Shown here: piece by piece, positions 821 through 56,339 of the stretch | Numbering within the stretch: position 1 is the first letter of the stretch | Layout: each line of letters starts with the position of its first letter | From: Heptranchias perlo | Taxonomy: Eukaryota | Assembly (NCBI RefSeq): GCF_035084215.1 | Contig: NC_090327.1 | Coordinates: 113,212,001-113,276,000 of the forward strand | DNA: 64,000 nt | Direction: 5' to 3' | Notes under the pieces: generated by a model | The model's input: the letters and a program-made list of their open reading frames with translations, nothing else | What the model was told of the DNA's origin: nothing | The model's database searches: none | Program-made: the position numbers and the translations under genes

Positions 821-1362
821 CCTGGGCTCGATTTTAAACCGGAATTGCAGGTGTGTTGGGGGCGAAGAAAATCGCGATTTCCAGGAGCGGACAGAAATCC
901 CGGCTCCAACACGTCTAAGAACGCACACGACCCAGAGTCATGTGGGTGCGCACGCCGTACCCGAACCCGGAAGCCCCGCCTGCAATTAAAGCCGGTGGGA
1001 CGATATTTAAACAAGCAATTCAAGTACTTGAAGTACTTGAAATGTACATGAATCTAATTAAGAGTGAAGTTAAGCGATTTCAACACTGCCTCAGTGTGTT
1101 TCCCGTGCTATGTGAAACACGCCATGGGGAACGAGTCGTGTTTCAGCCGGCAGCCATTTGGACATTTAAATCCTTGTTTGACAGATGGGGATAAAAGGTG
1201 AGTTATTGCAGTAGGGCACTCAGTTCTCTCAGACAAACTTTTGGCTGGGAGATCTTTGTGTTTAGACTGAAAATTCTTGGTTTCCACTCAGAATTGTTCT
1301 GTTTACTCATATTTACCAACTTTTCAGACCCCCTCAAACTGACACCATCAGGAAGGGGGCGT

Positions 1363-2526
1363 GATGGCTGCATTCATCACTACATCGAAGGACGAGCAAT
1401 ATCACCAGGCTCACCAGGCACTTCCGCCACGTGGAGCTCCACAACACCGTGCTGCGCCACAGGCACCTACACAAGAGCACAGAGAGGAACAACAGAGGGA
1501 GTGATGTCGCAGGAGGCACTACCCTCATCAGAGGGTCTACAGACCGAGGCTCAGCTTCCTGGACCTCTCTGAGGAGCAGTGCGTACAGAGGCTGAAAGTG
1601 AGTTGCCAGGTGGTCGCAGACATCTGCAGCCTCCTTCATGCCGAGCTGCTCCCGGCTGGCCCGAGCAGCATCTCCTTACCCATCGCTGTCAAAGTCACCA
1701 CTGCCCTCAACTTCTTCGCGTCCGGATCATTCCAGGGTGCCACTGGAGACATCGTCGGCATCTCTCAGTCATCTGCACACAGCTTGTTTCGCAGAGCCTC
1801 GCACTACATCAGCATCCCCATGGACGACCTCAGCCAGACAGAGAGGGCAGTGGGATTCCACTCTGTGGCTGGCTTCCCACGGGTACAGGGTGCAATTGAT
1901 TGCACCCAAATAGCAAAATGAGGACCTCCACATGAGCCAGGACTGTTCATCAATAGGAAGGGCTATCACTCTATCAACTCTCAGCTTGTTTATGACCACC
2001 ATAAAAGATTCCTTCACGTCTGCGCCAGATTCCCTGGCAGCTGCCACTATTCCTTCATTCTGAGAGAATCCAACATCCCGGGCCTCTTCCACGCACCAAA
2101 CACCCTTAAGGGCTGGCTCCTCGGGGACAAAGGGATACACCCTGCACACGTGGCTCATGACACCTCTGAGGAACCCCATCAGCGAACAACAGCGTCAATA
2201 CAACGACAGCCACATCGTCACCAGGTCTATAATTGAACATGCTATAGGGCTGCTGAAGGTGCCATTTCGGTGCCTCGATCATTCTGGGGGAGCGCTTCAA
2301 TACGGACCAGAGAGAGTGGGTCGCTTTATAGTAGTTGTGTTGTGTCCTGCACAATATGGCACATCAGAGAGGGGTGCCGCCTGAGGAGGCCCCATCCACA
2401 TCTGCCATCCACGTTGAGGAGGAGGAGGAGGAGATGGAGGAGGTGGAGGAACCCATGGGCAGGGCAATGGCTCAGCTAGCTGCTCATGAGGCCAGGGAGT
2501 CACTCGTATGTGATCGGTTCTCGTAA
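1363..2526 (+). pseudogene. Harbinger (HARBI1-like, DDE_Tnp_4) transposase pseudogene, arm A
   Basis: Motifs VKVTTALNFFASGSFQ, GFPRVQGAIDCT, NRKGYHSIN, LGDKG, IIEHAIGLLK, RCLDHSG and CCVLHN across several frames. Stop at 1919-1921 and frameshifts. The start coordinate is approximate. Confidence 0.9.
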
Positions 2527-2849
2527 GATCAGAAAGTGAGAAGAATCCAGTCCTCACACTACCTGGAAAGACCAGCGCCAACACCAGTAACCCCCCCACC
2601 CGCACCCCCTGCACAAAACAGTCCTGCAACTACACATACACCCACTGTAAAGTGACCCAATGGGTGGTATCAAGTGTCACCATTCATGGTGGACATCATG
2701 AAAGCGCGCTATCACAAAAGCCAGTCAAGAATGGACAAGACATGGCAGTAGTGGTGAGAATGATAACATTTAGTGTGACTAACAAAAAACAAATATAAAT
2801 GAAAAACATGACAGTTCTGTCAGACACCCTTGTGCATAACCTTCGTGAT

Positions 2850-4172
2850 CACAAAACCTTCGCCTTTCTCTTCCTACCACTTCTACGTGGTGCATCCCCT
2901 GTGCCTGCAGTAGAGGTAGTGGTAGATTGCTCATGTCCAGCTTAGATGCTTTCGGCCTACTCCCTCTGGGTTTTGGAACCTGTGAGGGCCCCTCCAAAGA
3001 CTGCTCCTCCTGCACCTGTGCAGGGGCAGACTCGGCCACCTGGAGAGGAGGCAGCATTGTGGGTACTGGTTGAGAGGGGGGCAACGGGTGAGATGTGGGA
3101 GCACTTTGAGTAGCGTCCCCACTTCCATGTCCCCATTCGTCATCATCCCTCTCCTGGACCAGGCCCACATCACTCCTACCACTTTGCTGGAGAACAGTTT
3201 GGAGGACATATATGATGCTCTGGAAGTCCAGTTGTAAAGTATCTGTCAGCTTGTTTAAGGCGGCAGAGTGCTGTTCACGGTGAATCCGAACGGCCGTCGC
3301 AGGGCCTGAATGGATTCATTTGTGAGTTGTGCTTGAAGCTCAATGGAGGCTAGCCTTCTCTCCATTGCAGATATTCCCGCACTTACCTGCGCCACTATCT
3401 CAGACATTTCAGCAGTTACCTGTGACACTATCTCAGACAGTTGCTTACATCCTGCGCCACTATCTCAGAGATTCCTCCCATACCTGTGCCACCATTCCAC
3501 TCATGCAGGAGTTGGGCTCCTCCATCCTCTGTTCTATTGTGGAGAGTGCGCGTGGCACCAGTTCCAGTACCTCGCAAATGTGCTGCTGTCCCTCGATCAT
3601 TCTCCTTTTAAAGGATGGCCCCCGGTGTTCAGCATCTGCGTCCAGCTGAGCAGAGTATGGAGAGGAGTGCGCCCACCGACACGGACTCTCCACAGCTGCC
3701 CCTGCCACTAATGTCTGCTCGTGCTCACTTGTGTGTGATGACTCACCAGGTGCCAACCCAACTACTCACTACTAAGACACTCCGAGGTGTGAGCATCTAC
3801 GCTGGTGGATGGCTCGCTAAGATGTGATGGTGCACCCTCAGAGGCCGGCAGGTCCTCCGAGGAATCGCCCTCTGCCGTCATTGCAGTCGTTGAACGGCCT
3901 GTAAGAGAACAGAAGGCAATATTAATCATCATCACAGATGTGTCATGTTGTGATGAGCATTCTGAGGTGTTGAACATGGCAAGGCATGTTAACATCAATT
4001 CCTGTTGTTTGTGATGAATGTTAAAGTTGTGTCACCAGATGTTTGTCGGGTGCCAGTACAGGCACCCCTGATGGACAGGCACTCGATGGTGCGGCTGATC
4101 TCCAGCGCCACCTGCTCCGCGTCTGTGAGGACCATTATTTGTTGTGGCCCCCCCTCCAGTCCTTGCCCTCTC
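2850..4172 (-). pseudogene. 3' exons of the Harbinger Myb/SANT-like accessory gene (5' exon missing)
   Basis: Begins abruptly at ERARTGG (~4170), with an intron acceptor ttctcttacag at ~3900. GPSFKRRMIEGQQHICEVL and QVQEEQSLEGPS are homologous to GPAMKRRLLEAQQQLCEVL and EMQEEQSVAGPS in the element at 52691-56588. Confidence 0.75.
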
Positions 4173-4236
4173 GGGGGGGGGCTGGTTTTGGTGCTGCTCT
4201 TTCCAGGTGGTGTGAGGACTGGACTCTTCACACATG

Positions 4237-5370
4237 TTAGGAAAACTGTTCACGTATGAGTGACTCCCTGGTCTCATGAGCAGCCAGATGAGTCGCTGCT
4301 CTGCCCATGGGTTCGTTCTCCTCCTCCGCCTCAATGTGAATGGCAGATGTGGATGGGGCCTCCTCAAGAGGCACCCCGCTCTGTTGTGCCATGTTGTGCA
4401 GGACACAACACACTACTATAATGCGTCCCACTCTGTCTGGTTCGTATTGAAGTGCTCCCCCAGAACGATCAAGGCACCTAAATTGCATCTTGAGCAGCCC
4501 TATAACATGCTCAATTGTAGACCTGGTGGCGATGTGGCTGTCATTATATCAATGCTGTTGCTCGGTGATGAGGTACCTCAGAGATGTCATGAGCCACGTG
4601 TTCAGGGGGTATCCCTTGTCCCCGAGGAGCCAGCCCTTAAGGGTGTTTGGTGCGTGGAAGAGGCCCGGGATGTTGGATTCTCTCAGAATGAAGGAATAGT
4701 GGCAGCTGCCAGGGAATCTGGCGCAGACGTGAAGGAATCTTTTATGGTGGTCATAAACAAGCTGAGAGTTGATAGAGTGATAGCCCTTCCTATTGATGAA
4801 CAGTCCTGGCTCATGTGGAGGTCCTCATTTTGCTATTTGGGTGCAATCAATTGCACCCTGTACCCGTGGGAAGCCAGCCACAGAGTGGAATCCCACTGCC
4901 CTCTCTGTCTGGCTGAGGTCGTCCATGGGGAAGCTGATGTAGTGCGAGGCTCTGCGAAACAAGCTGTGTGCAGATGACTGAGAGATGCCGACGATGTCTC
5001 CAGTGGCACCCTGGAATGATCAGGACGCGAAGAAGTTGAGGGCAGTGGTGACTTTGACAGCGATGGGTAAGGAGATGCTGCTCGGGCCAGCCGGGAGCAG
5101 CTCAGCATGAAGGAGGCTGCAGATGTCTGCGACCTCCTGGCAACTCACTCTGAGCCTCCGTACACACTGCTGCTCAGAGAGGTCGAGGGAGCTGAGCCTC
5201 AGTCTGTAGACCCTGTGGTGAGGGTAGTGCCTCCTGCGATCTCGCTTCCTGTTATTGCCCTTGTGCAGGTCCCTGTGGCGCAGCACTGTGTTGTGGAGCT
5301 TCACGTGGCGGAGGTGGTTGGTGATGTTGCTCATCCTCGGATGTACTGTTGAATGCAGCCATCGTTCCCC
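4237..5370 (-). pseudogene. Harbinger transposase pseudogene, arm B (inverted copy)
   Basis: Same motifs as arm A (ORFs 5020..5517, 4833..5108, and 4237..4488 with FRCLDRSGGALQY and CCVLHN). Extra TGA stop at ~5020. Confidence 0.9.
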
Positions 5371-6099
5371 CGATCCTGATGGTGTCAGTTTGAGGGGGTC
5401 TGAAAAGTTAGTAAATATGTGTGAATAGAAGAATTCTGAGTGGAAAGTAAGAATTTTCAGTGAAAACACAAAGATATCCCAGCCAAAAGAACTGATTGCC
5501 CTGCTCCAATAACTCACCTTTGATCCCTATCTGTCAAACAAGCATTTGAATGTCCAACTGGCTGCTGGCTGAAACCCATCTGGTAGAACATGGAGTGTTT
5601 CCCCACAGCACGGAAAACACACCGAGGTTGTTTGAAGATCAGACCCCTGCCTCAATGTGCACAAAATTAAGTACTTAAAGTACTTCAAGTATCTAGATAA
5701 GTCTCTTAACTATCATCCCATCAGCTTTAATTACCGGTGAGACTTCCGCATTGGTGAGGCACGCAGGCACCCAGACACGTCAGTGGGGAACCTGGACGTC
5801 TGCGGGTTGGAGCCGTGTTCCGAACCTGCTAGGGATTTCCCCAATTTTCGGAGCCCCCCCAGCCCCCAACGCACCCGCTACTTCATTCTAAAATCGGGGC
5901 CATGGTGATCAGAATCACGGGAATTCCTTGATGAAGCACAGTCTCTTTATAACCGTGCCATGTAAAATCTAATCTGTATTGAATGTAATCCTGCTATGAG
6001 TTGTTGACATGGAGTTTTCATATTGCCTGTGCCATATTACTATGCTTGTTGCCTCTGTGTGATATTTATGGACCAACCTTGCATGACAAAAATATTATT

Positions 6100-6745
6100 G
6101 GCCCCAAATTTAACTCCCCCTGCCTGGTTTTCACTGGGGGCAATTAAAATGAGGGGAGGGGAGGGGAGGGGAACGTCTTACCCCCCCCCCCCCCCCCCCC
6201 CCGCCGCCCGATCCCACTGCCTTCCTGACGGGTCTGAATAGTAACCTCCATTATTGAGCAGGCGAGCAGGACACCTGTCCCAAGCTGATGGGGTCCCACA
6301 TTTAAATATGCAGATCAGGGCCCGATGATGCCAGAAGAGGCCCAGGCAGGTCAGTTTTAAAATCACAATCTCAGGAATCGTATGTTTCATATTTTCTTAG
6401 CAGGTTAATAGGTTTCCTTGTGGAGCAGGGGTGCTGCTGCAGGCCTCACAAGGAAGCCTTGGGCCTCCCTTGTCTCGGGCTCCTCCCCTCCCCCGATTGC
6501 CTTCGTCCTCCGTCCCCCCCCCTCTCCCCCTCCCCCCCCCCCCCCTTACCACTTACCTGAATGCCGTGGACTGATCACGCAGGTCCCTGGCTGTGGCCTC
6601 CTGCCTGTGATCTTCCGGTGCCTCCGGCCGGCCAGGTAATGAGGCACGCTTGTTAAGATCAGCCGAGCCTCCATGTCCCCGGACTCCCCGGGTGCGCCAC
6701 CTGCTTTGGGGCTCGCACGGCCCCTTTAATATCAGGGCTATGGTG
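6100..6745. mobile_element. GC-rich Harbinger-type MITE remnant
   Basis: Starts GGCCCCAAATTTAAC, similar to other Harbinger termini here. Internal ATTTAAATATGCA motif and C-runs as in the other MITEs. Right end uncertain (~TTAATATCAGGGC). Confidence 0.5.
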
Positions 6746-7889
6746 TTTTTACAGTTTACAAGCACCTACACAGCCTGGTTGCGGAGTCTGGCTTTTCTCA
6801 GTAGCCATTGAGTTCTTTTCAAAAAAAAGTTTGTGTACCCTAGAGCTGAATTAATGAACTCTTCAACATTTATATTTGTTAAGTGAGTCATTAGCTGCTT
6901 GAAAAATGATAAAAGATCATTATTGCAGATGCATCACTTCTGCGAACAAAATCACAATCTCAGGAATCGTATGTTTCATATTTTCTTAGCAGTTTATGAT
7001 AAAAGGTAATGCTTTTAACCACTTATTGACAAAAGAGGAATATATGGCCCCCAGGGACCATTGACAAGGTACTAGAGTTTGTATCAATCATGGTGAAGTA
7101 TGACACTGACGGACCAGAATAATGTTCATTTAAACATGCTCCTCTTTGGTTGATGTTCAAAATACCACCTGAGTTCAATCAACAGCATAAGCGATTTCTG
7201 GAAACCCAGTCAGAGAGCAGAAGGTCTGCCTAATGACAGACTTTTAGTCCGGGAAAGATAACATTTCATGCTGGCCTTTAAAAAAAAATGTTGTTTGCAA
7301 TGCAAACTTTTTATTTAGCCAATTTTAGATTTTCTGTTTTCAATGCAGATGCTGTAATTTGTTTTCTTTGTGACTGCTGCTGAAAGATGCTGTTCTAGCT
7401 CAAATAGTAGATAGGTAATCAATAGCAAAAAGTGCCTTATTGCCTCTAATGTTGAGTTGAAAGGAATAATTGGATGCATTAGAGCAACTTGACTATATAG
7501 CATTCATTCAGACATAATGCTGCACATTCAAGCATAGCAATTCACCTAAATGGGGGTTCAACAACATATGTACAAGACGCGTACCAGGGAGTGCCTCAGC
7601 TACAACTGTCCTAGAAAACAAGCACCATGTGCCACTGGGTCAACTTTTAGATTACAACATTGGGTCAAATAAGCCAAGGGAACACTCAAACTATACCCAA
7701 CTATATAAAACGTTGCCACACACACAGTGAAGATTTTCTCTACGCACTGCAGCAACTTACTCGGAAGGGCGTATTCAGTGATGCTGCACTGTCGGAGTTG
7801 TTACCTTGGAACACGTGCCAGGGAGTTGGAGCAATAGGGGCCCATTTTTGTCATGCTACTGCCTTGTGTACACCTGTAAACAGGGCAGT

Positions 7890-8527
7890 AGTGCACTGAA
7901 AATTGAAAAAAATCAGTCAACTTATCGCTAGAGATCCGCTCATCGCAGTTTTTGTGCGGAACCCGATATAAGCAGCCAGCACTCTCCCCAGAAACAGGTG
8001 GGGGGCCTAATAAATATCTGTAAATAGGGGTCAAATGATGCAGTTAAGACCCCAACATGATTTTCTTGTCAATTAGCACTGCCACTGCTACTTTCACTAA
8101 TTGTGGCCAGTACAGGTCAGGAGGCGGCCATTCCCAGCTCCACTGAAAGAGATTAGCAGCTGCAGTAAGGGCAAGCTGGAAGCAGGTCTGTCACATGTTC
8201 CTTGATTCCTTTCGGAGTTTTGAGTCTTAAGGCTTCCTTAACCTCAACTCCTTAATGCTGGGAGCGCTGTTTAAATTTCTCTCATGCTGAAATAATCACC
8301 TCCGTTAACCCCCTGATCTTTGCAGCCTTTCCCCTTTAAGGTACTGCTGCAGGCCCATGGTCAGTGTACCGATCCCTCCACAAACAGCACGCTACCTATA
8401 AGCAGCGCGATTAACGTTGGCAGCTCAACTGAATGAGGCCTGACCACCGATCGGGCCTCCTGCTGATACTATCAGGTTGGTGGTGTGGGCACACCCCTAG
8501 CTGCGCGACAAGTGAATATCGCCCCCA
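7890..8527. mobile_element. Probable Harbinger-type MITE remnant
   Basis: GC/CpG-richer island ending GTGAATATCGCCCCC, which resembles a Harbinger right terminus. Left boundary approximate. Confidence 0.35.
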
Positions 8528-8957
8528 TAATGTTATAATTCTATCTCCAACTCGCGTGCTCATCTAGCAAAGTTCCACTCCAGGAATGAACGTCCCTGTA
8601 GTACACAGAGGAATGTTCCATGATAAAGAAACCAAGTATTCAACTTAGCTCATTATTGGTCAGAGTCCATTAATTCAGTGAAATGATGTATATATCCTTC
8701 CTGCAGAATAATTAAGCACATCCACTTTACATTTTACATTACATCCATCCCATGTTTTGTGGTCGATGCATTCAACTAAGTGACTGACACAAGAAATGCA
8801 CAGAGGGGATCTCAGCTGGGAGCACAAGGGTGATGAAGATGGTGGAATGGACAGCATGCACCATATATTTGAACTTTTTAGACAAAAAGGTGTTCGATAT
8901 GTTTTTATTCACTCCATTTTATGAAACATATAAATTGCATGAATAATCTGCAAAAAC

Positions 8958-10165
8958 TTCCTTCCCTTTCTCTCCTGAAGATGTTAGGGGGAATCTTCAA
9001 CTTCCGCCCAAAGCCAGTGTCTGGAGACCTGAACCATTTCCAGGTTTGGGCCTCATTTGAATGTAGTTGGTGAGCCTCGCTGTAGCTGGCCTGTTGTGGA
9101 AGGGCAGGAAATCAGTTGACTTCTACACTGAGCCGGCCGGTAGGTCAGGGCTGGGAGGAGGTGGGCTCCACAGAAATAATTTTTTTAAAGTTTGGGGCCC
9201 TTTGGTGGAGCATCCCTTTAAGGCTGCTCTCTAGGCCACTCATCTCCTCGTACAAATGGGCAGAGCGTGCATTTGTACTTCAAAATTGCAATTGGGATCC
9301 TACAACAGCATAGGACCCCAATTTGCATATTTGAACAGCCTCCTTGCAGTAAGTAGTGTTGATGGGAGCAGAAAGTTGAAAAGGGACATTGATAGATTAA
9401 GTGAGTGGGCAAAACTGGCAGCTGGAGTTCAATGTGGGGAAGTGTGAAGTCATCCACTTTGGGACCTAAGAAAGATAGAACAGAGTATTTTCTAAATGGT
9501 AAGAGGATAGGAACTGTGGAGGAGCAGAGAGATTTAGGGGTCCTCACCTTGAGTACTGCATTCAGTTCTGGGCACCGCACCTCAAGAAGGATATAATGGC
9601 CTTGGAGGGGTAGTTGCGCAGATTCACCAGAATGATACCAGGGCTAAAAGGGTTAAATTATAAGGACAGGCTTGTATTCCCTCGAGTGTAGAAGATTAAG
9701 GGATGATCTAATTGAGGTGTTTAAGATGATTAAAGGAATTGATAGGGTAGATAGAGAGAAATTATTTCCTCTGGCGGGGGAGTCCAGAACAAGGGGGGCA
9801 TAACCTTAAAATTAGAGCTAGTCCATTCAGGGGTGATGTCAGGAAGCACTTCTTCACACAAAGGCTACTGGAAATCTGGAACTCTCTCCCCCAAAAAGCT
9901 GTTGAGGCTGGGGGTCAATTGAAAAATTCAAAACTGAGATAGATAGATTTTTGTTCGGAAAGGGTATTAAGGGGTAAATGGTGTTGAGGTACAGGCTTGA
10001 GGGGCTGAATGGCCTACGCCTGTTCCTATGTTCCTATTCACTCTCTGATATCTCATAGAATATTCAAGTGTGAGCCTGTTGCCCTCCAGAATTTATGAGA
10101 ACTGAGACCAATTGTAACATCCTTAGCAGATTAGCTGAGATTAGTTGACTCAGCATGGATCAGAT
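8958..10165 (-). mobile_element. LF-SINE-like relic split by a MITE fragment (~8986-9340) and a CR1
   Basis: 8958-8985 (ctttctctcctgaag) matches the LF-SINE 3' end. 10060-10160 (gtgtgagcct...ctgagaccaattgta...gctgagattagttgactcagca) matches the reverse complement of its internal and 5' part, as in the copy at 33329. Confidence 0.5.
9345..10037 (+). mobile_element. CR1 LINE 3' fragment
   Basis: RT C-terminal remnants ([18 protein letters not shown]), 3'UTR GAGGGGCTGAATGGCCTAC and a (TTCCTATG)n tail. Confidence 0.9.
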
Positions 10166-11783
10166 CTGTTTTAGATTCTCATTCAATAATTGCCATAGCT
10201 ATTGAAGACACAAACTGTGTTTAAAAAACAAAAGAAAAAGCAGCAAGTGAAAGCAAGAAAGTTCCAAAAACTTTATGTGCAGTAATGCTGAGCTAAAACA
10301 AAATACAGAAAAGTAATCTCACCATGATTTCCATTAATTCTTCCAGTTGACCAAGGTGCTGAACCAAATTCATTTATTTGCTTCAGGCAAAACTAGAGAG
10401 CATGTCACATTATTGCACTAAGCCAGTGAAGTAGTCTATGGTATATTTGAGATGGTACAGAACTAGGTGAGGCAAAGGACTGTACAATAAGGATATACAA
10501 GGATTGTTTCATGCAGATAAAAATATGAAACATATATGTTGTGATAAGTTTTATAGAGACAAAGTGAGCTGCATATCAGGCATGACTTCACTAGCTAGTA
10601 GCTTCAGGGGTAATTTTGATTTTGGGTGATAGTATAAAACAGGTGATATAATTTCAGCCACTCGTTATACATTATTGTTTTTAGTGGTTAGTGTTTTTTA
10701 GTGGTTGGTTAGTGTTTTTTAGTGGTTAGTATTTTAGTGTCAGGTAAACAGTAAAGTGCCTTAAAGCTAAACAAACAGTTAAAATAACTGTTAGCTAACA
10801 TGGCAGGACATCTGGGGCCCATTGCATGCACATCCTGTGCTATGTGGGAACTCTCAGAGTTTCTGAGCTTGAGGGGCGGCTGGCATCACTACAGCGCATA
10901 CAGGAAGCTGAGGGTTTTATGGATAGCATGTTTCAGGAGCTGGGAGGAAGTTAAAAAGCAGGACCTCAAAGGTAGTAATCTTTGCATTACTTCCAGCGCC
11001 ATGTGCTAGTGAGTATAGGAATAGTAGGATAAGACAGGTTAATGCGTGGCTGGAGCAATGTTGCAGGAGGGAGGGCTTCAGATTCCTGGGGCATTGGGAC
11101 TAGTCCTGGAGCAGGAGGGATCTGTTCAAGATGGACGGGTTGCACCTCAACAGAGCTGGGACCAATATACTCGCGGAAAGTTAACCTGTGCTGTGGGGGA
11201 GGGTTTAAACTAACTTGGCAGGGGGGTGGGCACGGTAACACAGGGGACAGGGAGGGACAAGTACCACTAGAGTAAAGAATAGTTCAGAAATAGGAGGGAT
11301 AAGATGCGGGCAAATGTGAGGCAATCTAAGATGAGATTGGAGTGCATATGCATAAATGCACGTAGCGTAGTAAATAAGATTGGTGAGCTGCAGGCTCAAG
11401 TCACCACATGGGTCTATGATATAGTGGTAAAAACAGAACTGGCTCAGAGAAGGGTGCATTGGGTACTTAATATTCCTGGCTACAAGGTATTCAGAAAAGA
11501 TAGGGAAGGAAAGATAGGAGGGGGTGGGGGTGGTGGCAGTATTGATCAAATAAATTTTTATAGCACTGGAAAGGGATGATGTAGTTGAGGGGTCAAAGAC
11601 AGAATCTATTTGGTTAGAATTAAGGAACAATAGAGGATCCATTACGCTACTGCATGTATACTATAGGCCACCAAATAGGGGAAGGAGATAGAGGGGCAAA
11701 TTTGTGGGAAATTACAGAAAGATACAAGAATTCTAGTCTTAATGGGGGACTTCAATTATCCCAATATAGACTGGGAGCCTATA

Positions 11784-12276
11784 TGTAAAGAATCTTACAA
11801 CACCAGGTTATAGTCCAACAATTTTATTTGAAAATCACAAGCTTTCGGAGATTATCTCCTTCGTCGGTTTAGTGTGGGATTCCTTGAACGTTGGTGGGGT
11901 TACCAGCGAATAAAAGTTATCTGTTTTTAATACAACGGGTCATTCTCTGTCTTTCTCTTCCTTTCGGATGTTTCTCCCTCTCTCTCTCTGTCTTTTGTTC
12001 TGGCCGTTTGTATATTCGGTGGTCCTGTAGGTAACACCTCTCTGTCTGAACACTTTGATTGCCTTGACAACGGGCAGTTGGAAAGATTATCTGTAATCAC
12101 CAGGTATTGTTCTCTGACTATAAATGCGAAACGTTCAAGGAATCCCACACTCACCTGACGAAGGAGATAATCTCCGAAAGCTTGTGATTTTCAAATAAAA
12201 TTGTTGGACTATAACCTGGTGTTGTAAGATTCTTTACATTTGTCAACCCCAGTCCATCACTGGCATCTCCACATCA
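11784..12276 (+). mobile_element. Penelope-like element pLTR fragment with inverted 5' segment
   Basis: TSD TGGGAGCCTATA (11772-11783 / 12277-12288). 11784-11891 is the reverse complement of ~12130-12238. Contains TATAAA (~12119), a hammerhead, AATAAA (~12194) and a 3' extension ending GGCATCTCCACATCA. Confidence 0.85.
12151..12187 (+). ncRNA. Minimal type I hammerhead ribozyme
   Basis: tcac-CTGACGA-a-ggaga-taa-tctcc-GAAA-gc-TT-gtga: stem I TCAC/GTGA, intact CUGANGA and GAAA boxes, 5-bp stem II, and palindromic AAGCTT in place of stem III. This is the known minimal architecture of Penelope-associated hammerheads. Confidence 0.8.
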
Positions 12277-21372: not shown

Positions 21373-24012
21373 GGGGGGAAAATTGGATAAGGCCTATTTT
21401 CAGGCGTTGGTAGTTCGATCCGTTATTAACCCACGCCCGGTGGCCCCTGTGCAGGCAGGACAAGACTTTCAGTACTCACCTTCAATCAGTATTGACACAA
21501 GGATTCCATGCAATTTGCACTTTCTACCAGCAGAAGAGCCCCAATCTCTTAAAGGGAGGATGCCTCTTAAAATCTCTTAAAGGTAACCGGTACCTGCTAT
21601 TTGCTAAAAATAACAGTCTGCTGTCTGCACCGCGTCTGAACGGAGATCAGACATTGTACCTGTAAAACACAGATGCAGGTCCCGTCCCTATGTTTACACA
21701 CTGATGAGTTATGTTAAAACATTGAATAAAGTTTTGCGCACGACTAAATCCCACACCCTCCAATCTGCATGCCAGACCTCACCAATCTGCCGATCTGAGT
21801 TTGTGCCAAGCCTGCGAGAGTGCATGCACCAAGGTGCTCTGCTGATGCACTAGAGGCTTTGGTGCAAGAGCTGGACAGAAGGAGGAGCATCCTATATCTG
21901 TGGGGGGGGGGGGGGGCAAGAGGCCCTCCAGATATATGCCCAAAAGGCAGTGGGAGGTAGTAGGGGACGAAGTCAATGCCAGGTGCAAAGCACCACGAAC
22001 ATGGTTGCAAGAAGAAGTTCAATGCTTTGACACGAGTGGTCAAGGTGAGTGAGGTCAACTGTCAAGTGGCGCCTCCTATCACCTGCACCACTAGCCGCAT
22101 CCACTGCTCCTCGCACTACACTCTCCATCACCCACATACCAACAAACTCTTTCCATCAGTACTTAACTCATCCAATCGAATGCTTCCTCTCACCCTTACA
22201 CATTACCACTGTTGCAAGCCACCCATCCACAACTCACAGGCCACACACACTGGCAGCTATTCAACCATGACAGGCACATCACCCAGACACACGTCCCACT
22301 TTCTTGCAGGAGAAGGTGGCGCATAACAGGAGGCAGCAAGTGGCAGTGGCATTTAGCCCCTCGAGCCTGTTCTGTCATTCAATGAGATCATGCTGGACCT
22401 GTGACCTAACTCCATATAACCGCCGTAGCCCCATATCCCTTAGTTCTTGGTTCACAGAAATCTATCAATCACAGATTTAGAATTCACAATTGAGCTAGCA
22501 TCAAGTGCCTTTTGCAGAAAAGCTTTCCAAACGTCTCCCACCCTTTGCATGTAGCAGCGTTTCCTAACTTCACTCGTGCAAGTCCTAGCTCTAAATGTTA
22601 GGCTATGTTCCCTAGTCCGAGTATTCAAGTGTAGGAAACCTCCAAAACCAGTTACAAATGTCTCGGCAAGCAGAAGCAATAATCCAGCCACTAACCTGTA
22701 AATCCTGCATGGTCCCTTTAAATAGCACTGGTGGGGGGTGTCCTCCAAGCACCGTAAGAAATGTTCAGATGGTCGTGGTTAAGGCTGTGCGTTGAGTTGA
22801 GCGTTATGTCCCAAAATGGTGTCCATCAATATTACATATCAAAGTTTGCAGATGATACAAAGATGGGAGGGAAAGTAGAGAGTGAGGAGGACATAAAAAA
22901 TCTACAAGGGGATATAGACAGGCTGGGTGAGTGGGCGGAGATTTGGCAGATACAATACAATATTGGAAAATGTGAGGTTATGCACTTTGGCAGGAAAAAT
23001 CAGAGAGCAAGTTATTATCTTAGTGGCGAGAAACTGGAAAGTACTGCAGTACAAAGGGATCTGGGGGTCCTAGTGCAAGAAAATCAAAAAGTTAGTATGC
23101 AGGTGCAGCAGGTGATCAAGAAGGCCAACGGAATGTTGGCTTTTATTGCTAGGGGGATAGAATATAAAAACAGGGAGGTATTGCTGCAGTTATATAAGGA
23201 ATTGGTGAGACCGCACCTGGAATACTGCATACAGTTTTGGTCTCCATACTTAAGGAAAGACATACTTGCTCTCGAGGCAGTACAAAGAAGGTTCACTCGG
23301 TTAATCCCGGGGATGAGGGGGTGGACATATGAGGAAAGGTTGAGTAGATTGGGACTCTACTCATTGGAGTTCAGAAGAATGAGAGGCGATCTTATTGAAA
23401 CATATAAGATTGTGAAGGGGCTTGATCGGGTGGATACGGTAAGGATGTTCCCAAGGATGGGTGAAACTAGAACTTGGGGCATAATCTTAGAATAAGGGGC
23501 TGCTCTTTCAAAACTGAGATGAGGAGAAATTTCTTCACTCAGAGGGTAGTAGGTCTGTGGAATTTGCTGCCCCAGGAAGCTGTGGAAGCTACATCATTAA
23601 ATAAATTTAAAACAGAAATAGACAGTTTCCCAGAAGTAAAGGGAATTAGGGGTTACGGGGAGCGGGCAGGAAATTGGACATGAATTTAGATTTGAGGTTA
23701 GGATCAGATCAGCCATGATCTTATTGAATGGCGGAGCAGGCTCGAGGGGCCGATTGGCCTACTCCTGCTCCTATTTCTTATGTTCTTATTTTCTTATGTA
23801 AAATAGTGTTCCTCACTGTTTGCTTCCATTTCAACCTTACTTTACATGCTTCCAGCATTCGGTATTTGCGCATGTGCTAACTCCTATACCCAGATGGCGC
23901 CCAGTGCATGTCACACTGAAAACGTGCATGCGCAGCCAAGACACCATCTTGGATATTCGAGAGGCCACGTAGCACCAAAACAAGGGGTGCTACATGGCCC
24001 AATTTAGTGCCC
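21373..24012. mobile_element. Non-autonomous Harbinger element with Myb-like exons and CR1 3' end (copy 2, opposite orientation to copy 1)
   Basis: Ends GGGGGGAAAATTGGATAA / CCAATTTAGTGCCC. Exon CKKKFNALTRVVK|gtgagt...ttcttgcag|EKVAHN at ~21820-22345 (+). CR1 3' end at ~22350-22625 (-). Homologous to 12702-14479. Confidence 0.85.
22834..23799 (+). mobile_element. Young CR1 3' fragment nested in the Harbinger element
   Basis: Open RT frame ISKFADDTK...RMGETRT, complete 3'UTR and (TTCTTATG)n tail. Nearly identical to 46335-47553. Confidence 0.95.
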
Positions 24013-46334: not shown

Positions 46335-47553
46335 CATAAGAAACATAAGAACATAAGAAATAGGAGCAGGAGTAGGCCAATCGGCCCCTCGAGCCTGCTC
46401 CGCCATTCAATAAGATCATGGCTGATCTGATCCTAACCTCAAATCTAAATTCATGTCCAATTTCCTGCCTGCTCCCCGTAACCCCTAATTCCCTTTACTT
46501 CTGGGAAACTGTCTATTTTTGTTTTAAATTTATTTAATGATGTAGCTTCCACAATTTCCTGGGGCAGCAAATTCCACAGACCTACTACCCTCTGAGTGAA
46601 GAAGTTTCTCCTCATCTCAGTTTTGAAAGAGCAGCCCCTTATTCTAAGATTATGCCCCCTAGTTCTAGTTTCACCCATCCTTGGGAACATCCTTACCGCA
46701 TCCACCCGATCAAGCCCCTTCACAATCTTATATGTTTCAATAAGATCGCCTCTCATTCTTCTGAACTCCAATGAGTAGAGTCCCAATCTACTCAACCTCT
46801 CCTCATATGTCCGCTCCCTCATCCCCGGGATTAACCGAGTGAACCTTCTTTGTACTACCTCGAGAGCAAGTATGTCTTTTCTTAAGTATGGACACCAAAA
46901 CTGTATGCAGTATTCCTGGTGCGGTCTCACCAATACCTTATATAACTGCAGCAATACCTCCCTGTTTTTATATTCTATCCCCCTAGCAATAAACGCCAAC
47001 ATTCCGTTGGCCTTCTTGATCACCTGCTGCACCTGCATACTAACTTTTTGATTTTCTTGCACTAGGACCCCCAGATCCCTTTGTACTGCAGTACTTTCCA
47101 GTTTCTGGCCATTAAGATAATAACTTGCTCTCCGATTTTTCCTGCCAAAGTGCATAACCTCACATTTTCCAATATTGTATTGCATCTGCCAAATCTCCGC
47201 CCACTCACCCAGCCTGTCTATATCCCCTTGTAGGTTTTTTATGTCCTCCTCACTCTCTACTTTCCCTCCCATCTTTGTATCATCTGCAAACTTTGATATG
47301 TTACACTCAGTCCCCACCTCCAAATCGTTAATACAGATTGTAAAGAGTTGGGGACCGAGCACTGACCCCTGCGGAACACCACTGGCTACTGGTTGCCAGT
47401 CCGAGAATGAACCATTTATCCCAACTCTCTGCTTCCTGTTAGATAACCAACCCTCCACCTATGCCAGAATATTACCCCCAATCCAGTGATTCTTTATCTT
47501 GAGCAATAATCTTTTATGTGGCACCTTGTCGAATGCCTTCTGGAAGTCTAAAT
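46335..47553 (-). mobile_element. Young 5'-truncated CR1 with uninterrupted 335-aa RT C-terminal ORF
   Basis: ORF 46451..47458 with SGVPQGSVLGP and FADDTK; (CATAAGAA)n tail on the + strand; AAATATAT on both flanks. Confidence 0.95.
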
Positions 47554-53319: not shown

Positions 53320-54060
53320 TTACCCCTCTCACAGGGTTTACAGATAGAGGCTCAGCTTCTTTGATCTGTCTGAGGAGCGGTGGGTTCAGGAGGTTCAGAT
53401 TGTCAAGGCAGGAGGTCGCTGACCCCTGCAGCCTCCTCGAGGAAGACCTCCTGCCTGCTGGACCGGCAGGACTGAGAGAGCACAGGAGTTTACAGCTCTG
53501 GCTGGCTTCCCACAAGTGCAGGGCGCATAAGAATGCACACTCGTAGCCATCAGAGCACCCCTCGATCAGCCAGGAGCCTTTGTTAACCCCAAGGATTTCC
53601 ACTCCATCAATGTTCAACTTGTCAGCAACCATAAGAAGAGGTTCATGCAGGCATGCGCCCAATACCCAGGGAGCTGACATGTTGCCTTCATATTACAGCA
53701 GTCGAATATCCGTATCATGTTTCACCCTGACACCAGTGTTACAGGATGGCTGTTTGGGAACAAGGGTTACTCCCTTCTCCAATGGCTGATGACACCTCTC
53801 TGGAATCCCACCAGTCCACAGCAGAACAGGTACAACAGCAGCCACATTGCCACAAGGTGCGTCATAGTGCAGGCCATTGGGTTGTTGAAGTTGAGATTCA
53901 CGTGCCTTGACAGGTTTAGATACTCTCTGCAATACTCACCAGCCAAAGTCTCCAGAATAATAGTACAATGCTGCATCCTGCGTAACATCACTCAGTAAAG
54001 ATGACTGGAGGTGCAGGAGGAAGAAGGCCTGCAGACTCCTCATCTGAAGAGGAAGAGGAT
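53320..54060 (+). pseudogene. Harbinger transposase pseudogene
   Basis: RFRLSRQEVAD, GWLFGNKGY, WLMTPL, QAIGLLKLRFTCLDR and CCILRN; internal deletion and frameshifts. Confidence 0.85.
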
Positions 54061-54389
54061 GATAAGGTGTGCAGGTCATCTTGCAGCCCGAGATGCAAGG
54101 GATGCTCTTATAGCTCGGCACTTCATGTAGACATATGTCACCTCTACCACTCTTACGTAACCAGACCTGCAAATCTTACTTCATTGCACTGACATCCTCC
54201 ACATTGTCACCATGATAATATCGCTCTGACTTCCACATCTATGACATAGAAACCAGGCACTGAAATTGTCGTTAAATCAGGGGGCACACGAGAACAGCTT
54301 AAGTGACAAAGGCTTTAATGTGCTCCAATAATCAAATCATAAAGTCAATTCATGAAACACCCAAGAGTTAACTCTCAGTGATCTATTTA

Positions 54390-56339
54390 GCCCTTCTCTT
54401 CTTACCTCTACCACATCTACGATGTGCCACCCAAGTGGCTTGAGCGTAGATGGTGATTGGCTACTGTGTAGTTTCCTCAGTCTCCTGAGATGCTCATGGT
54501 CGACGATCTCTGGGTGCTCGTGCCCATGAGGGCCCTGCCACTGACTGCTCCTCCTGCATTTCTGCAAAGGCAGTCTGGGCCAACTGGAGTTCAGGCACCA
54601 TGTCAGGCATTGGTTGAGGGGGTGGCGATGGATGAAATGTGCAGACATCCTGAGAGAGGTCCACACGTGCCTCGCCAACGTCCCTCCCCTGGGGCAGTGA
54701 CACATCAGTCATGCAGGGCTGCGGGAGAGCAGACTGGAGGAGATCAGTGACACCTTGGAAGCCCCGATCTACTCTGTCCACCAACTTGTCAAATATGGAA
54801 CAGACGTTGGAGCCCAGAGTCTACACAGCGGCAGTATGAGCCTGTAGGCAGGCCACAGCATTTGGTAGCAGTGACCCTTGTGAGTACCTGGCTGCAATTT
54901 CCAAGGAGGTGGCCACATGCTTCATGGTACATTGCAAAGTTGAGAAACCCTGCGTTATGATGGAAGTGAACTTCTCCATCCTCCCTGCCATAGTAGACAG
55001 TGTGTCTGGCAGGCCTACCAATACCTCACACAATTGTTGCTGTGCCTCCAGTAATCTCCTTTTCATTGCAGGCCCCCAGGGTTCTGCATCTCTGTCCTGT
55101 TGAGCAGAGCTTGGAGAGGACGGCGCCATCTGACACTTACGCTCCTCCTCTGTCCCCGCCACCACTTGTGCCGTAAGACTCGCCAGGTGCTGGCCCATCT
55201 ACCTCACTGAAATGCCCACTCGGTGTGCTGGTATCTGCACTGGTGCCTGCAACACATGCATCCTGTGACAGTGCATCCTCAGGAGGTATCAGGTCCTCTG
55301 AGGTGTCTTCGTCCTCTGTGGGCAGGGGCTCATTTGGTTTGCGTGGGAGCGCTGGAGGCAAGAAGAAAGGGTGAAGATTAATAATGGTACTTAGAAGATG
55401 TTAATGTGCGCATGAAGCACTTGACCATAGTGGTTGATGTGTTGAAGTCGGCTGAAGATGAAGTTGGTCTGTAGGAGATGCGGGGCTGATAGATTAACGC
55501 AGTCACTCTGCTCCACTGGTCCACCAACCTCGCCATCAGTGATGCTCAAGGTGCTGGAGGTGCCGCTTACCTCCAGTTCTTTCCTCTCCTGCCGGCGTCA
55601 CATCAACGATGTCTGATGGTGCTCCATTAGTCCAGGCCCTCTCCCTGGCATTCTGCGCTCTCTTCCCCTGTAAAGGGGGTAGGACAGTGCTCTGATTGGC
55701 TAGCTGGAATATGTGCTTCCTCTGGATGTAGTGCATATGGTGAAAGTGAGAATCAGGCAAATGTAAAAGCACTGGGGATGGCATGCATTCGCAGAATGTG
55801 GATACAGTATGAATTGAGGAGATCTGATGACAGTGGGTGCAGGTGGAGCAGGTCAGATGAATTGAGATGAGGATGGTGTTATTGGCAGCAGTGGAAGAAG
55901 GAAGTGGGAGGTGAGCATGTGTAAGGATTCAGGACGAGAGGTGGCGCAGTGAGCCATTCCGATTGGTGGTGAGGAAAGTGATACAGGGGTGAGGAGTGAT
56001 ATGAATGGTGTAGGAGGGACAAGGGGGAATGGAAGGAGGTGCATTGCAGGAGATGGGTAAAGAAGGTCTTGTGCTGACCTTTCCTGACCTAGTCAGGTCA
56101 TTGAAACGTTTCCTGCACTGGATCCAAGACCTTGGCGTGATGTTCCTGCTGCTCACATCCTCAGCCACCTCTATCCAGGCCTTCTTCATGGTGGCAGCTG
56201 ATTTCTTCTTCCCACTTGTGGGGAACAACACATCCTTTCTTGCCCTCGCAGCACCCAGCTGGACTCCCAGGAAAGTATCAGTGAATCGGGGGAGCAACCT
56301 TCCCTCACTTTCCAGCCATTTTACAGATTTTGAACTCAT
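54390..56339 (-). pseudogene. Harbinger Myb/SANT-like (Myb_DNA-bind_5-type) accessory gene, 3 exons, decayed
   Basis: Exon 1 PRFTD...KKAWIEVAEDVS...RSWIQCRKRFNDLTRSGK|gt (donor ~56078). Exon 2 acceptor ctttacag|GKRAQNARERA (~55668). Exon 3 begins at ~55352. Confidence 0.8.

What the first reader, a model, noticed from the sequence alone, without database searches (positions are those of the whole stretch)
1612..5134. Sharp 519-bp homogenised tract between inverted transposase pseudogenes: arm-to-arm gene conversion
Seen: 1612-2130 and the reverse complement of 4616-5134 differ at only 3 of 519 positions by manual comparison, while the adjacent homologous sequence (2131-2250 vs 4497-4615) is only about 85% identical. 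Inside the tract both arms share apparent lesions: the TGA stop after CTQIAK, H-Y-S instead of the conserved H-D-S/A motif, and an apparent in-frame deletion at SAH^SLF. Inference: two already diverged, dead copies were homogenised later by intrachromatid conversion across a ~2.5-kb spacer, possibly with inversion of the spacer. A transcript across the locus would also form ~0.5 kb of near-perfect dsRNA.
Basis: partly seen in the sequence, partly recalled or inferred. Interest (0 to 1): 0.7.

Follow-up and report, generated by a model that had tools for sequence, protein, structure and literature searches.

The report
Dead shark transposon overwritten by neighbours
Two long-dead, back-to-back copies of a jumping gene share a nearly identical 519-base stretch, and one of them shares a second, adjoining 760-base stretch with a third copy 784,000 bases away, likely because DNA repair copied from these neighbours; this is a known process, with no sign of a function here.

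Summary
1612-2130 and the reverse complement of 4616-5134 differ at 3 of 519 sites, against 12-17% in the flanks. The arms (A, B) are two independently inserted, dead PIF/Harbinger transposons in a probable shark genome, joined tail to tail. In the tract they share 19 rare alleles, and no unlinked copy carries more than 3 (n=119). Read-derived contigs of one sample show private tract sequence at about twice single-copy depth. Subfamily mosaicism and assembly collapse are therefore unlikely; non-crossover ectopic gene conversion fits. Corrections: the shared TGA is a common CpG decay (25 of 119 copies), and spacer inversion is not supported. New: arm A also shares 824-1582 (14 of 759 differences) and two smaller patches with a full-length inverted copy 784 kb away. 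These two pairs are the only ones with a perfect 200-base window among 2069 old repeat alignments scanned, so A may be a recurrent repair site. Direction (B to A) is only favoured; dsRNA is untested. Conversion between neighbouring Alus is in print, and the scan noted conversion among gene paralogues elsewhere in this genome. Modest interest.

The parts
824..4173 (+). Element A: Harbinger copy with left end, transposase pseudogene and the 3' part of the second (Myb-like) gene; right end missing
   Evidence: Colinear with unlinked family copies and with full-length copy C; junction at 4173
824..835 (+). Left terminal inverted repeat of A
   Evidence: Same motif at the ends of many family copies
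1185..2526 (+). Transposase pseudogene of A (probable short first exon and intron 1198-1327, inferred from GT/AG signals; stops and frameshifts)
   Evidence: PF13359 DDE_Tnp_4 E=8.5e-10 on 1922-2233; frames; exon layout read from the sequence
824..1582 (+). Tract shared with copy C (G000:C3:112425474-112429583, minus strand, 784 kb away): 14 differences in 759 columns
   Evidence: next closest of 87 copies compared is 7.5% divergent
1612..2130 (+). Homogenised tract, arm A
   Evidence: 3 of 519 differences from arm B; 19 shared rare alleles
2198..2324 (+). Small patch shared with copy C (3 of 127 differences)
   Evidence: next best 5.5%, subfamily median 11%
2487..2659 (+). Small patch shared with copy C (6 of 164 differences); weaker
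   Evidence: next best 4.5%, subfamily median 9%
2779..4173 (-). 3' remains of the Myb-like second gene of A; the SANT-domain exon is missing here and present in copy C
   Evidence: Colinear with C; PF13873 E=5e-4 on C's first exon, just under the curated cut-off
4173..4175 (.). Junction of A's truncated Myb-like gene with B's 3' end, about 1 base of overlap
4174..5901 (-). Element B: Harbinger copy of another subfamily, left end plus transposase pseudogene only
   Evidence: PF13359 E=5e-11 on 4240-4548; subfamily scores
4616..5134 (-). Homogenised tract, arm B
5890..5901 (-). Left terminal inverted repeat of B

Best explanation
The 519-base tract is likely the footprint of a non-crossover ectopic gene conversion, in which DNA repair copied one dead Harbinger transposon onto its inverted neighbour 2.5 kb away. 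Shown: A and B are separate insertions of different subfamilies, 12-17% apart outside the tract, and they share private decay inside it. Inferred: a break or stalled fork in A was repaired by strand invasion or template switching into B, with short synthesis and a return to A, so the spacer kept its orientation. B as donor is favoured (my estimate about 65%), not shown. Arm A likely went through the same thing earlier with copy C, 784 kb away and also inverted, over 824-1582 and in two smaller patches. The event is late: about 1-2 changes per arm in the tract against about 4-5% private change per copy since insertion, so roughly the last 5-10% of the elements' history. It is most likely neutral.
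For: Against 73 unlinked copies (of 86 fetched at that point), the tract has 19 shared rare alleles and 1+1 arm-specific ones in 518 columns; the outer flank has 2 shared and 11+23 arm-specific in 430; the inner flank 0 shared and 19+16 in 433. Of 119 copies (of 140 fetched), 67 carry none of the 19 alleles and none more than 3. Among 7381 pairs the best 300-column window has 0 mismatches for A-B, 2 for A-C, 2 for L005-L026 (a segmental duplication), then 9 or more. Subfamily log-odds are +30 and +22 for A's flanks, -35 and -44 for B's flanks, and -3 for the shared tract, so no crossover. Across copies, distance to the tract tracks distance to B's flanks (rho 0.58, n=122) and not distance to A's unconverted parts (rho -0.10, n=100). 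Exact contigs over private tract sequence have depth 19.7 and 18.7 (1725-1811, runs X3, X4), against 11.5-12.1 for arm-A-specific contigs and 8.4-11.9 for exact or near-exact B-flank and unique contigs. In yeast, inverted repeats give conversion without inversion or inversion (PMC8748988, passages).
Against: The read evidence is from short contigs of one sample, which may be the one that was assembled; no listed contig bridges a tract edge with 31 bases on both sides. The tract is not a clean match to B's subfamily: its score lies between the two subfamilies, and B's nearest relatives mismatch it at 8-12 of 23-28 sites, near the 90th percentile of the calibration, so direction is uncertain and a third, unsampled donor is not excluded. 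The genome search scores only 40 of thousands of candidates and missed A when C was the query. A's outer flank may itself derive from C, which weakens it as a crossover marker. In runs X1 and X2 a contig with A's base at 1724 has depth 18.7, so B's base there may be heterozygous or an assembly error.
Confidence: 0.85

Rival explanations
1. Crossover between the inverted copies inverted the spacer, and the tract is the conversion that went with it.
For: Inversion and conversion are about equally common outcomes at a fork barrier in yeast (PMC8748988, passages); a human inversion between opposite L1PA7 copies shows flanking conversion (PMC5829575, passages). A's segment 2325-2486 and parts of the spacer score as non-A subfamily.
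Against: Both flanks of A score as one subfamily and both flanks of B as another. Patches shared with C lie on both sides of the tract on arm A and look older than it (23 of 1050 against 3 of 519, Fisher p=0.019; main tract alone p=0.079), so a later crossover would have moved the inner patches to arm B.
Confidence: 0.05
2. Both arms took the tract from a third copy, or belong to a rare mosaic subfamily that carries it.
For: The family is mosaic and the tract fits neither arm's subfamily cleanly. The search is not exhaustive: 40 of 7840 candidates scored.
Against: The best unlinked match to the tract region was 88%; no copy has more than 3 of 19 rare alleles. Two neighbours would each have to take the same edges. 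A third donor for one arm would still need an arm-to-arm copy.
Confidence: 0.05
3. The identical tract is an assembly or polishing collapse.
For: Only short contigs from one sample were available, none bridging an edge; one of the three differences may be weakly supported in two runs.
Against: Private tract sequence sits at about twice single-copy depth; one contig ends exactly beside the 1724/5022 difference. Each arm has its own derived changes. No other letters were listed over arm B at 95% likeness (swamped by family contigs, so weak). The A-C tract shows the same doubling (1388-1461 at 23.7).
Confidence: 0.03
4. Identity is kept by selection on a hairpin RNA or a domesticated function.
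For: A read-through transcript would form a very stable duplex (predicted -1156 kcal/mol).
Against: Selection for pairing would not make both arms share random loss-of-function changes. The edges are sharp and fall inside a dead reading frame. No host-gene evidence was sought beyond an ORF list of the window.
Confidence: 0.02

Closest known systems
Non-allelic gene conversion between neighbouring Alu elements (Aleshin and Zhi 2010, seen only as cited in PMC8230782 and PMC6598467, passages; the paper itself was not held)
   Same: Diverged interspersed repeats within about 10 kb share non-diagnostic mutations; the rate depends on distance and identity.
   Different: Here the elements are autonomous-type DNA transposon fossils in a probable shark, the tract is 519 bases with sharp edges, and the same element has a second partner 784 kb away, far outside the 10-kb range.
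Inverted-repeat recombination at stalled forks in yeast (PMC8748988, passages)
   Same: Inverted repeats a few kb apart; short synthesis gives conversion with the spacer unchanged.
   Different: The yeast reporter uses near-identical engineered alleles and a defined barrier; here the repeats were 12-17% diverged and the trigger is unknown.
Template-switch homogenisation of quasi-palindrome arms (PMC8604942, PMC3820800; search listing and start of abstract only)
   Same: Arms of an imperfect inverted repeat become identical by copying from the other arm.
   Different: Those are short repeats; here the copied stretch is 519 bases, 2485 bases from its template.
PIF/Harbinger DNA transposons (PMC9179366, passages)
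   Same: DDE transposase, second Myb/SANT-like gene, terminal inverted repeats, 3-bp target duplication.
   Different: Both window copies are dead and lack their right ends; they are joined tail to tail.
Multi-invasion and multi-template repair (PMC10499017; search listing and start of abstract only)
   Same: One broken molecule engaging more than one ectopic donor would give adjacent tracts from two partners, as in A.
   Different: Whether A's two tracts are one event is not shown; the divergence counts lean towards two events.

Membership tests
PIF/Harbinger DNA transposon | DDE transposase of the Harbinger type | tested here: met
   PF13359 on both arms; an intact relative L055 scores E=2.6e-32 and its best hits are shark proteins named 'putative nuclease HARBI1', 56-63% identical
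PIF/Harbinger DNA transposon | Second gene with a Myb/SANT-like domain | tested here: inconclusive
   PF13873 E=5e-4, 20.3 bits against a cut-off of 21.7, on the decayed first exon of copy C; that exon is deleted in the window
PIF/Harbinger DNA transposon | Terminal inverted repeats | tested here: met
   The same 12-base motif at both ends of C and L091 and at the left ends of A and B
PIF/Harbinger DNA transposon | 3-bp target-site duplication | tested here: met
   CAT/CAT at L091; TTG/ATG (one mismatch) at C. Not testable for A or B, whose right ends are gone
PIF/Harbinger DNA transposon | Dispersed multicopy family | tested here: met
   4583-9559 first-look candidates per window query in G000
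Non-allelic (ectopic) gene conversion | Tract far more alike than its homologous flanks | tested here: met
   0.6% against 12-17%
Non-allelic (ectopic) gene conversion | Shared derived alleles private to the pair | tested here: met
Non-allelic (ectopic) gene conversion | Flanking markers not exchanged (non-crossover) | tested here: met
   the outer flank of A may be C-derived, so the test leans on the C-like patches
Non-allelic (ectopic) gene conversion | One-way transfer from a donor to a recipient | tested here: inconclusive
   B to A favoured, but the tract fits neither subfamily cleanly
Non-allelic (ectopic) gene conversion | Unconverted ancestral state in an orthologue or another haplotype | not testable with these tools
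   G000 has no relatives here; runs X5 (organism B) gave only short pieces with 2-3 mismatches
Composite transposon bounded by two left ends | Same 3-bp duplication outside both ends | tested here: not met
   CCT before 824, ATG after 5901
Hairpin small-RNA locus | Transcript across both arms with dsRNA or small RNA | not testable with these tools
   No RNA holder on record was listed; no raw RNA reads available

The most novel reading that the evidence does not exclude
Element A is a recurrent break site that acts as a conversion sink: the inverted A-B pair (a hairpin-prone structure, or a substrate with two left ends for a younger related transposase) breaks in the germ line, and repair patches A from whichever inverted copy on the same chromosome is at hand, first one 784 kb away and then the neighbour, possibly in a single template-hopping event, since the two tracts lie only 29 bases apart. 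Close inverted transposon pairs in shark genomes would then be natural recorders of long-range homology search between 12-17% diverged sequences.
Probability: 0.25. Interest if true: 0.5.

Novelty: new member of a known kind. Interest (0 to 1): 0.32.

Why it matters
As a single event it has no shown consequence: both copies are dead. It is a clean natural example of long conversion tracts (519 and 760 bases) between repeats that were 12-17% diverged, and it shows that part of a fossil element can look ten to twenty times younger than the rest, which can mislead dating of transposons by pairwise identity. The second partner at 784 kb is the more unusual point. If close inverted pairs are preferential recipients genome-wide, slowly evolving shark genomes would allow range, orientation and divergence tolerance of germ-line homology search to be measured in a vertebrate.

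Tried and rejected
Expression: no RNA holder listed; guessed-RNA run X6 gave only short pieces with 1-3 mismatches; this says nothing either way about dsRNA. B as an old inverted duplicate of A: rejected, different subfamilies. A-B as a composite transposon: rejected, target duplications differ. Inversion of the 784-kb interval by A-C crossover: not supported, since C's own end triplets nearly match (TTG/ATG) and A's left triplet (CCT) does not match C's right one. A as a plain duplicate of C: rejected, 12-24% divergent outside the patches and at 2131-2197 9%. Direction of A-C: weak lean to C as donor (rho 0.23 and -0.27, p 0.11 and 0.05). Further partners for A's spacer: none above 89-91%. 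Control copies L014 and L058 and C's inner part had no partner above 89, 87 and 88%, but these searches score only 40 candidates and one search missed A. A deletion hotspot at 1770-1800: mostly a selection effect, 59 of 95 flank-selected copies are full length there. A genome-wide excess of fold-back duplications: 14 inverted against 1 direct under 500 bp in the C3 region (several are self-palindromic elements) but 2 against 2 in the 400-kb C8 control, so not established; a second control region was not obtained. Absolute dating: the 7e-10 per generation rate of another shark (PMC10587355, passages) would give about 4 million generations (0.9-12 by Poisson limits, my arithmetic); I do not trust this transfer and use relative age only. 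Literature: six searches listed no paper on conversion between Harbinger copies or in shark transposons; the library lacks most subscription papers and I read no supplements, so this is not proof of absence.

Full report
Observation. Window 1612-2130 and the reverse complement of 4616-5134 differ at 3 of 519 positions: 1642, 1724 and 1814. They lie inside a longer inverted homology, 968-2596 against 4173-5748, at 86% overall. The flanks differ by 12-17% and the edges are sharp. Chance is excluded (P=2e-28).

What the arms are. Both encode decayed DDE_Tnp_4 transposases. An intact relative matches shark proteins labelled 'putative nuclease HARBI1' best (Heptranchias perlo 63%, Carcharodon carcharias 57%, Chiloscyllium plagiosum 56%), so the host is likely a shark. 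The family has thousands of candidates in the 3.25-Gb genome, a shared terminal motif and a 3-bp target duplication, and a weak Myb/SANT hit in the second gene of a full-length copy. These are the marks of PIF/Harbinger elements given in PMC9179366 (passages). Element A runs from 824 to 4173 and has lost the start of its Myb-like gene and its right end. Element B runs from 5901 down to 4174 and has lost its Myb-like gene and right end. They meet with about one base of overlap, which suggests a deletion joined by end joining (inference). The triplets outside the two left ends differ, so the pair did not insert as one unit.

Are the shared changes private? Against 73 unlinked copies (of 86 fetched at that point; the rest were short or rearranged), the tract has 19 rare alleles shared by A and B and only 1+1 arm-specific ones. 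The outer flank has 2 shared and 11+23 arm-specific, the inner flank 0 shared and 19+16. In the larger set (119 of 140 loci) no copy carries more than 3 of the 19. Among 7381 pairs only three have a 300-column window with fewer than 9 mismatches: A-B, A-C and L005-L026; the last is a segmental duplication that includes flanking DNA.

Is it real DNA? Four runs of one sample hold about half of the sampled words. An exact 87-base contig over the private deletion and nearby private sites has depth 19.7 and 18.7 in runs X3 and X4, and ends beside the 1724/5022 difference; arm-A-specific contigs have 11.5-12.1, and exact or near-exact B-flank and unique contigs 8.4-11.9. That is what two copies give. 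Limits: the sample may be the assembled one, only the longest contigs are listed, none bridges an edge by 31 bases, and in X1 and X2 a contig with A's base at 1724 is also near double depth, so B's base there may be heterozygous or an error.

Crossover or not. Log-odds between two subfamilies are +30 (outer) and +22 (inner) for A and -35 and -44 for B. A crossover in the tract would have swapped the inner flanks. Arm A also carries patches shared with copy C on both sides of the tract, and these look older (23 of 1050 against 3 of 519, p=0.019; main tract alone p=0.079). Spacer inversion is therefore unlikely. Against this, 2325-2486 and parts of the spacer do not score as A's subfamily, and the family is mosaic.

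Direction. In the tract A scores -3, below all 46 members of its own subfamily and above all 17 of B's. Distance to the tract follows distance to B's flanks (rho 0.58) and not to A's unconverted parts (rho -0.10) (copies are related, so the p-values are not to be trusted). B's nearest relatives still mismatch the tract more than usual. I put B as donor at about 65%.

A second partner. Searching with A's outer flank found one copy at 97% while the other 38 listed were 89-91%. This copy, C, is full length, 784 kb upstream on the same contig and inverted relative to A. A and C differ at 14 of 759 columns from the terminal repeat at 824 to 1582 and share 21 rare alleles there; then 7 of 29, 65 of 476 (the A-B tract), 6 of 67, 3 of 127, 31 of 158, 6 of 164 and 52 of 440 (51 of 62 loci of A's type aligned). 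Contig depth doubles over 1388-1461, just after an A-C difference. The A-C tract stops 29 bases before the A-B tract starts. C as donor is only a weak lean.

How rare. I scanned repeat-pair alignments of 500 or more columns with at least 10% background divergence: 916 within the 860-kb C3 region, 229 within a 400-kb control on C8 and 924 between them. Only two have a perfect 200-column window, A-C and A-B; one trans pair has 1 mismatch, and the C8 control has none under 8. The C3 region was chosen because it holds A and C, so this gives rarity, not a rate. That both outliers involve A is the main ground for the novel reading. In the C8 control, two inverted pairs 3.1 and 2.3 kb apart rank first and third among 285 pairs at 7% background or more, a weak hint that close inverted pairs convert more often.

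Mechanism. Shown: independent origin of A and B, private shared alleles, sharp edges, unexchanged flanks, later changes in both arms. Inferred: a break or stalled fork in one arm, invasion of or switching to the inverted neighbour, about 0.5 kb of synthesis and return. In yeast such short-tract synthesis at inverted repeats gives conversion without inversion (PMC8748988, passages). Same-chromatid, sister and homologue templates cannot be told apart. The trigger is unknown; a hairpin-prone inverted pair, or cutting by a younger related family whose copies are about 95% alike, are untested possibilities. Relative age: 1-2 changes per arm against about 4-5% private change per copy puts it in roughly the last 5-10% of the elements' history.

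Comparison and verdict. Conversion between neighbouring repeats within about 10 kb is described for Alu (PMC8230782 and PMC6598467, passages), and local conversions are seen in human long reads (PMC5829575, passages). Six paper searches listed no Harbinger or shark-transposon case; the library is incomplete and no supplements were read. Earlier notes of this scan report conversion among gene paralogues elsewhere in this genome (unchecked by me) and nothing near this place or on this pattern. The finding is real, a new member of a known kind, with no shown function. The two-partner patchwork in arm A lifts it a little. Interest 0.32.

Noticed in passing
L091:3350-5624 (G000:C8:17789000 onward): A Harbinger copy holds two templated inverted segments at 100% identity to nearby sequence (3350-3714 copied at 3804-4167; 5285-5624 copied at 4166-4505), a double template-switch insertion or an assembly artefact.
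   Followed up: partly
G000:C3:112786634-112787104; 113039094-113040924; 112839754-112840490; 112431399-112432324: Local inverted duplications at 96-100% identity without flanking homology on the outer side, including a near-perfect palindrome with 234-base arms and a 3-base spacer. The excess was not reproduced in the C8 control.
   Followed up: partly
window 11783-11892 and 12130-12239: 110-base inverted pair at 97%, 237 bases apart, with unrelated flanks.
   Followed up: partly
G000:C3:112452512-112492296: A 40-kb tandem satellite (offsets are multiples of 33 bases) that changes orientation at about 112476670.
   Followed up: no
L093:8050-9550 (G000:C1:153224049): A younger related Harbinger family: the 39 other listed copies are 94-96% identical. 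It sits head to head with an older copy, as does a second element at L010/L094; no homogenised tract was seen in the parts aligned.
   Followed up: partly
L005 and L026 (G000:C26:48.84 and 48.99 Mb): Two family copies 2% apart lie in a multi-kb local duplication with rearranged pieces.
   Followed up: partly
window 22834-23798 and 46335-47301: Inverted pair at 97.6%; it has several equally close partners far away, so a young repeat family and not a conversion.
   Followed up: partly
window 53324-54744: A more distant element of the same kind, 64-76% identical to pieces of A and B.
   Followed up: no
window 3381-3480: A has about 64 extra bases of short tandem units in the Myb-like gene relative to copy C; L030 shows several such units.
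   Followed up: no
G000:C3:113140398-113149020: A local direct multi-copy duplication with stretches at 95-99% beside stretches near 90%; possible conversion between tandem copies.
   Followed up: no
G000:C8:40162627-40169045 and 40212129-40216042: Two close inverted repeat pairs in the control region with 2 and 3 mismatches in the best 200 columns against 7% background.
   Followed up: no
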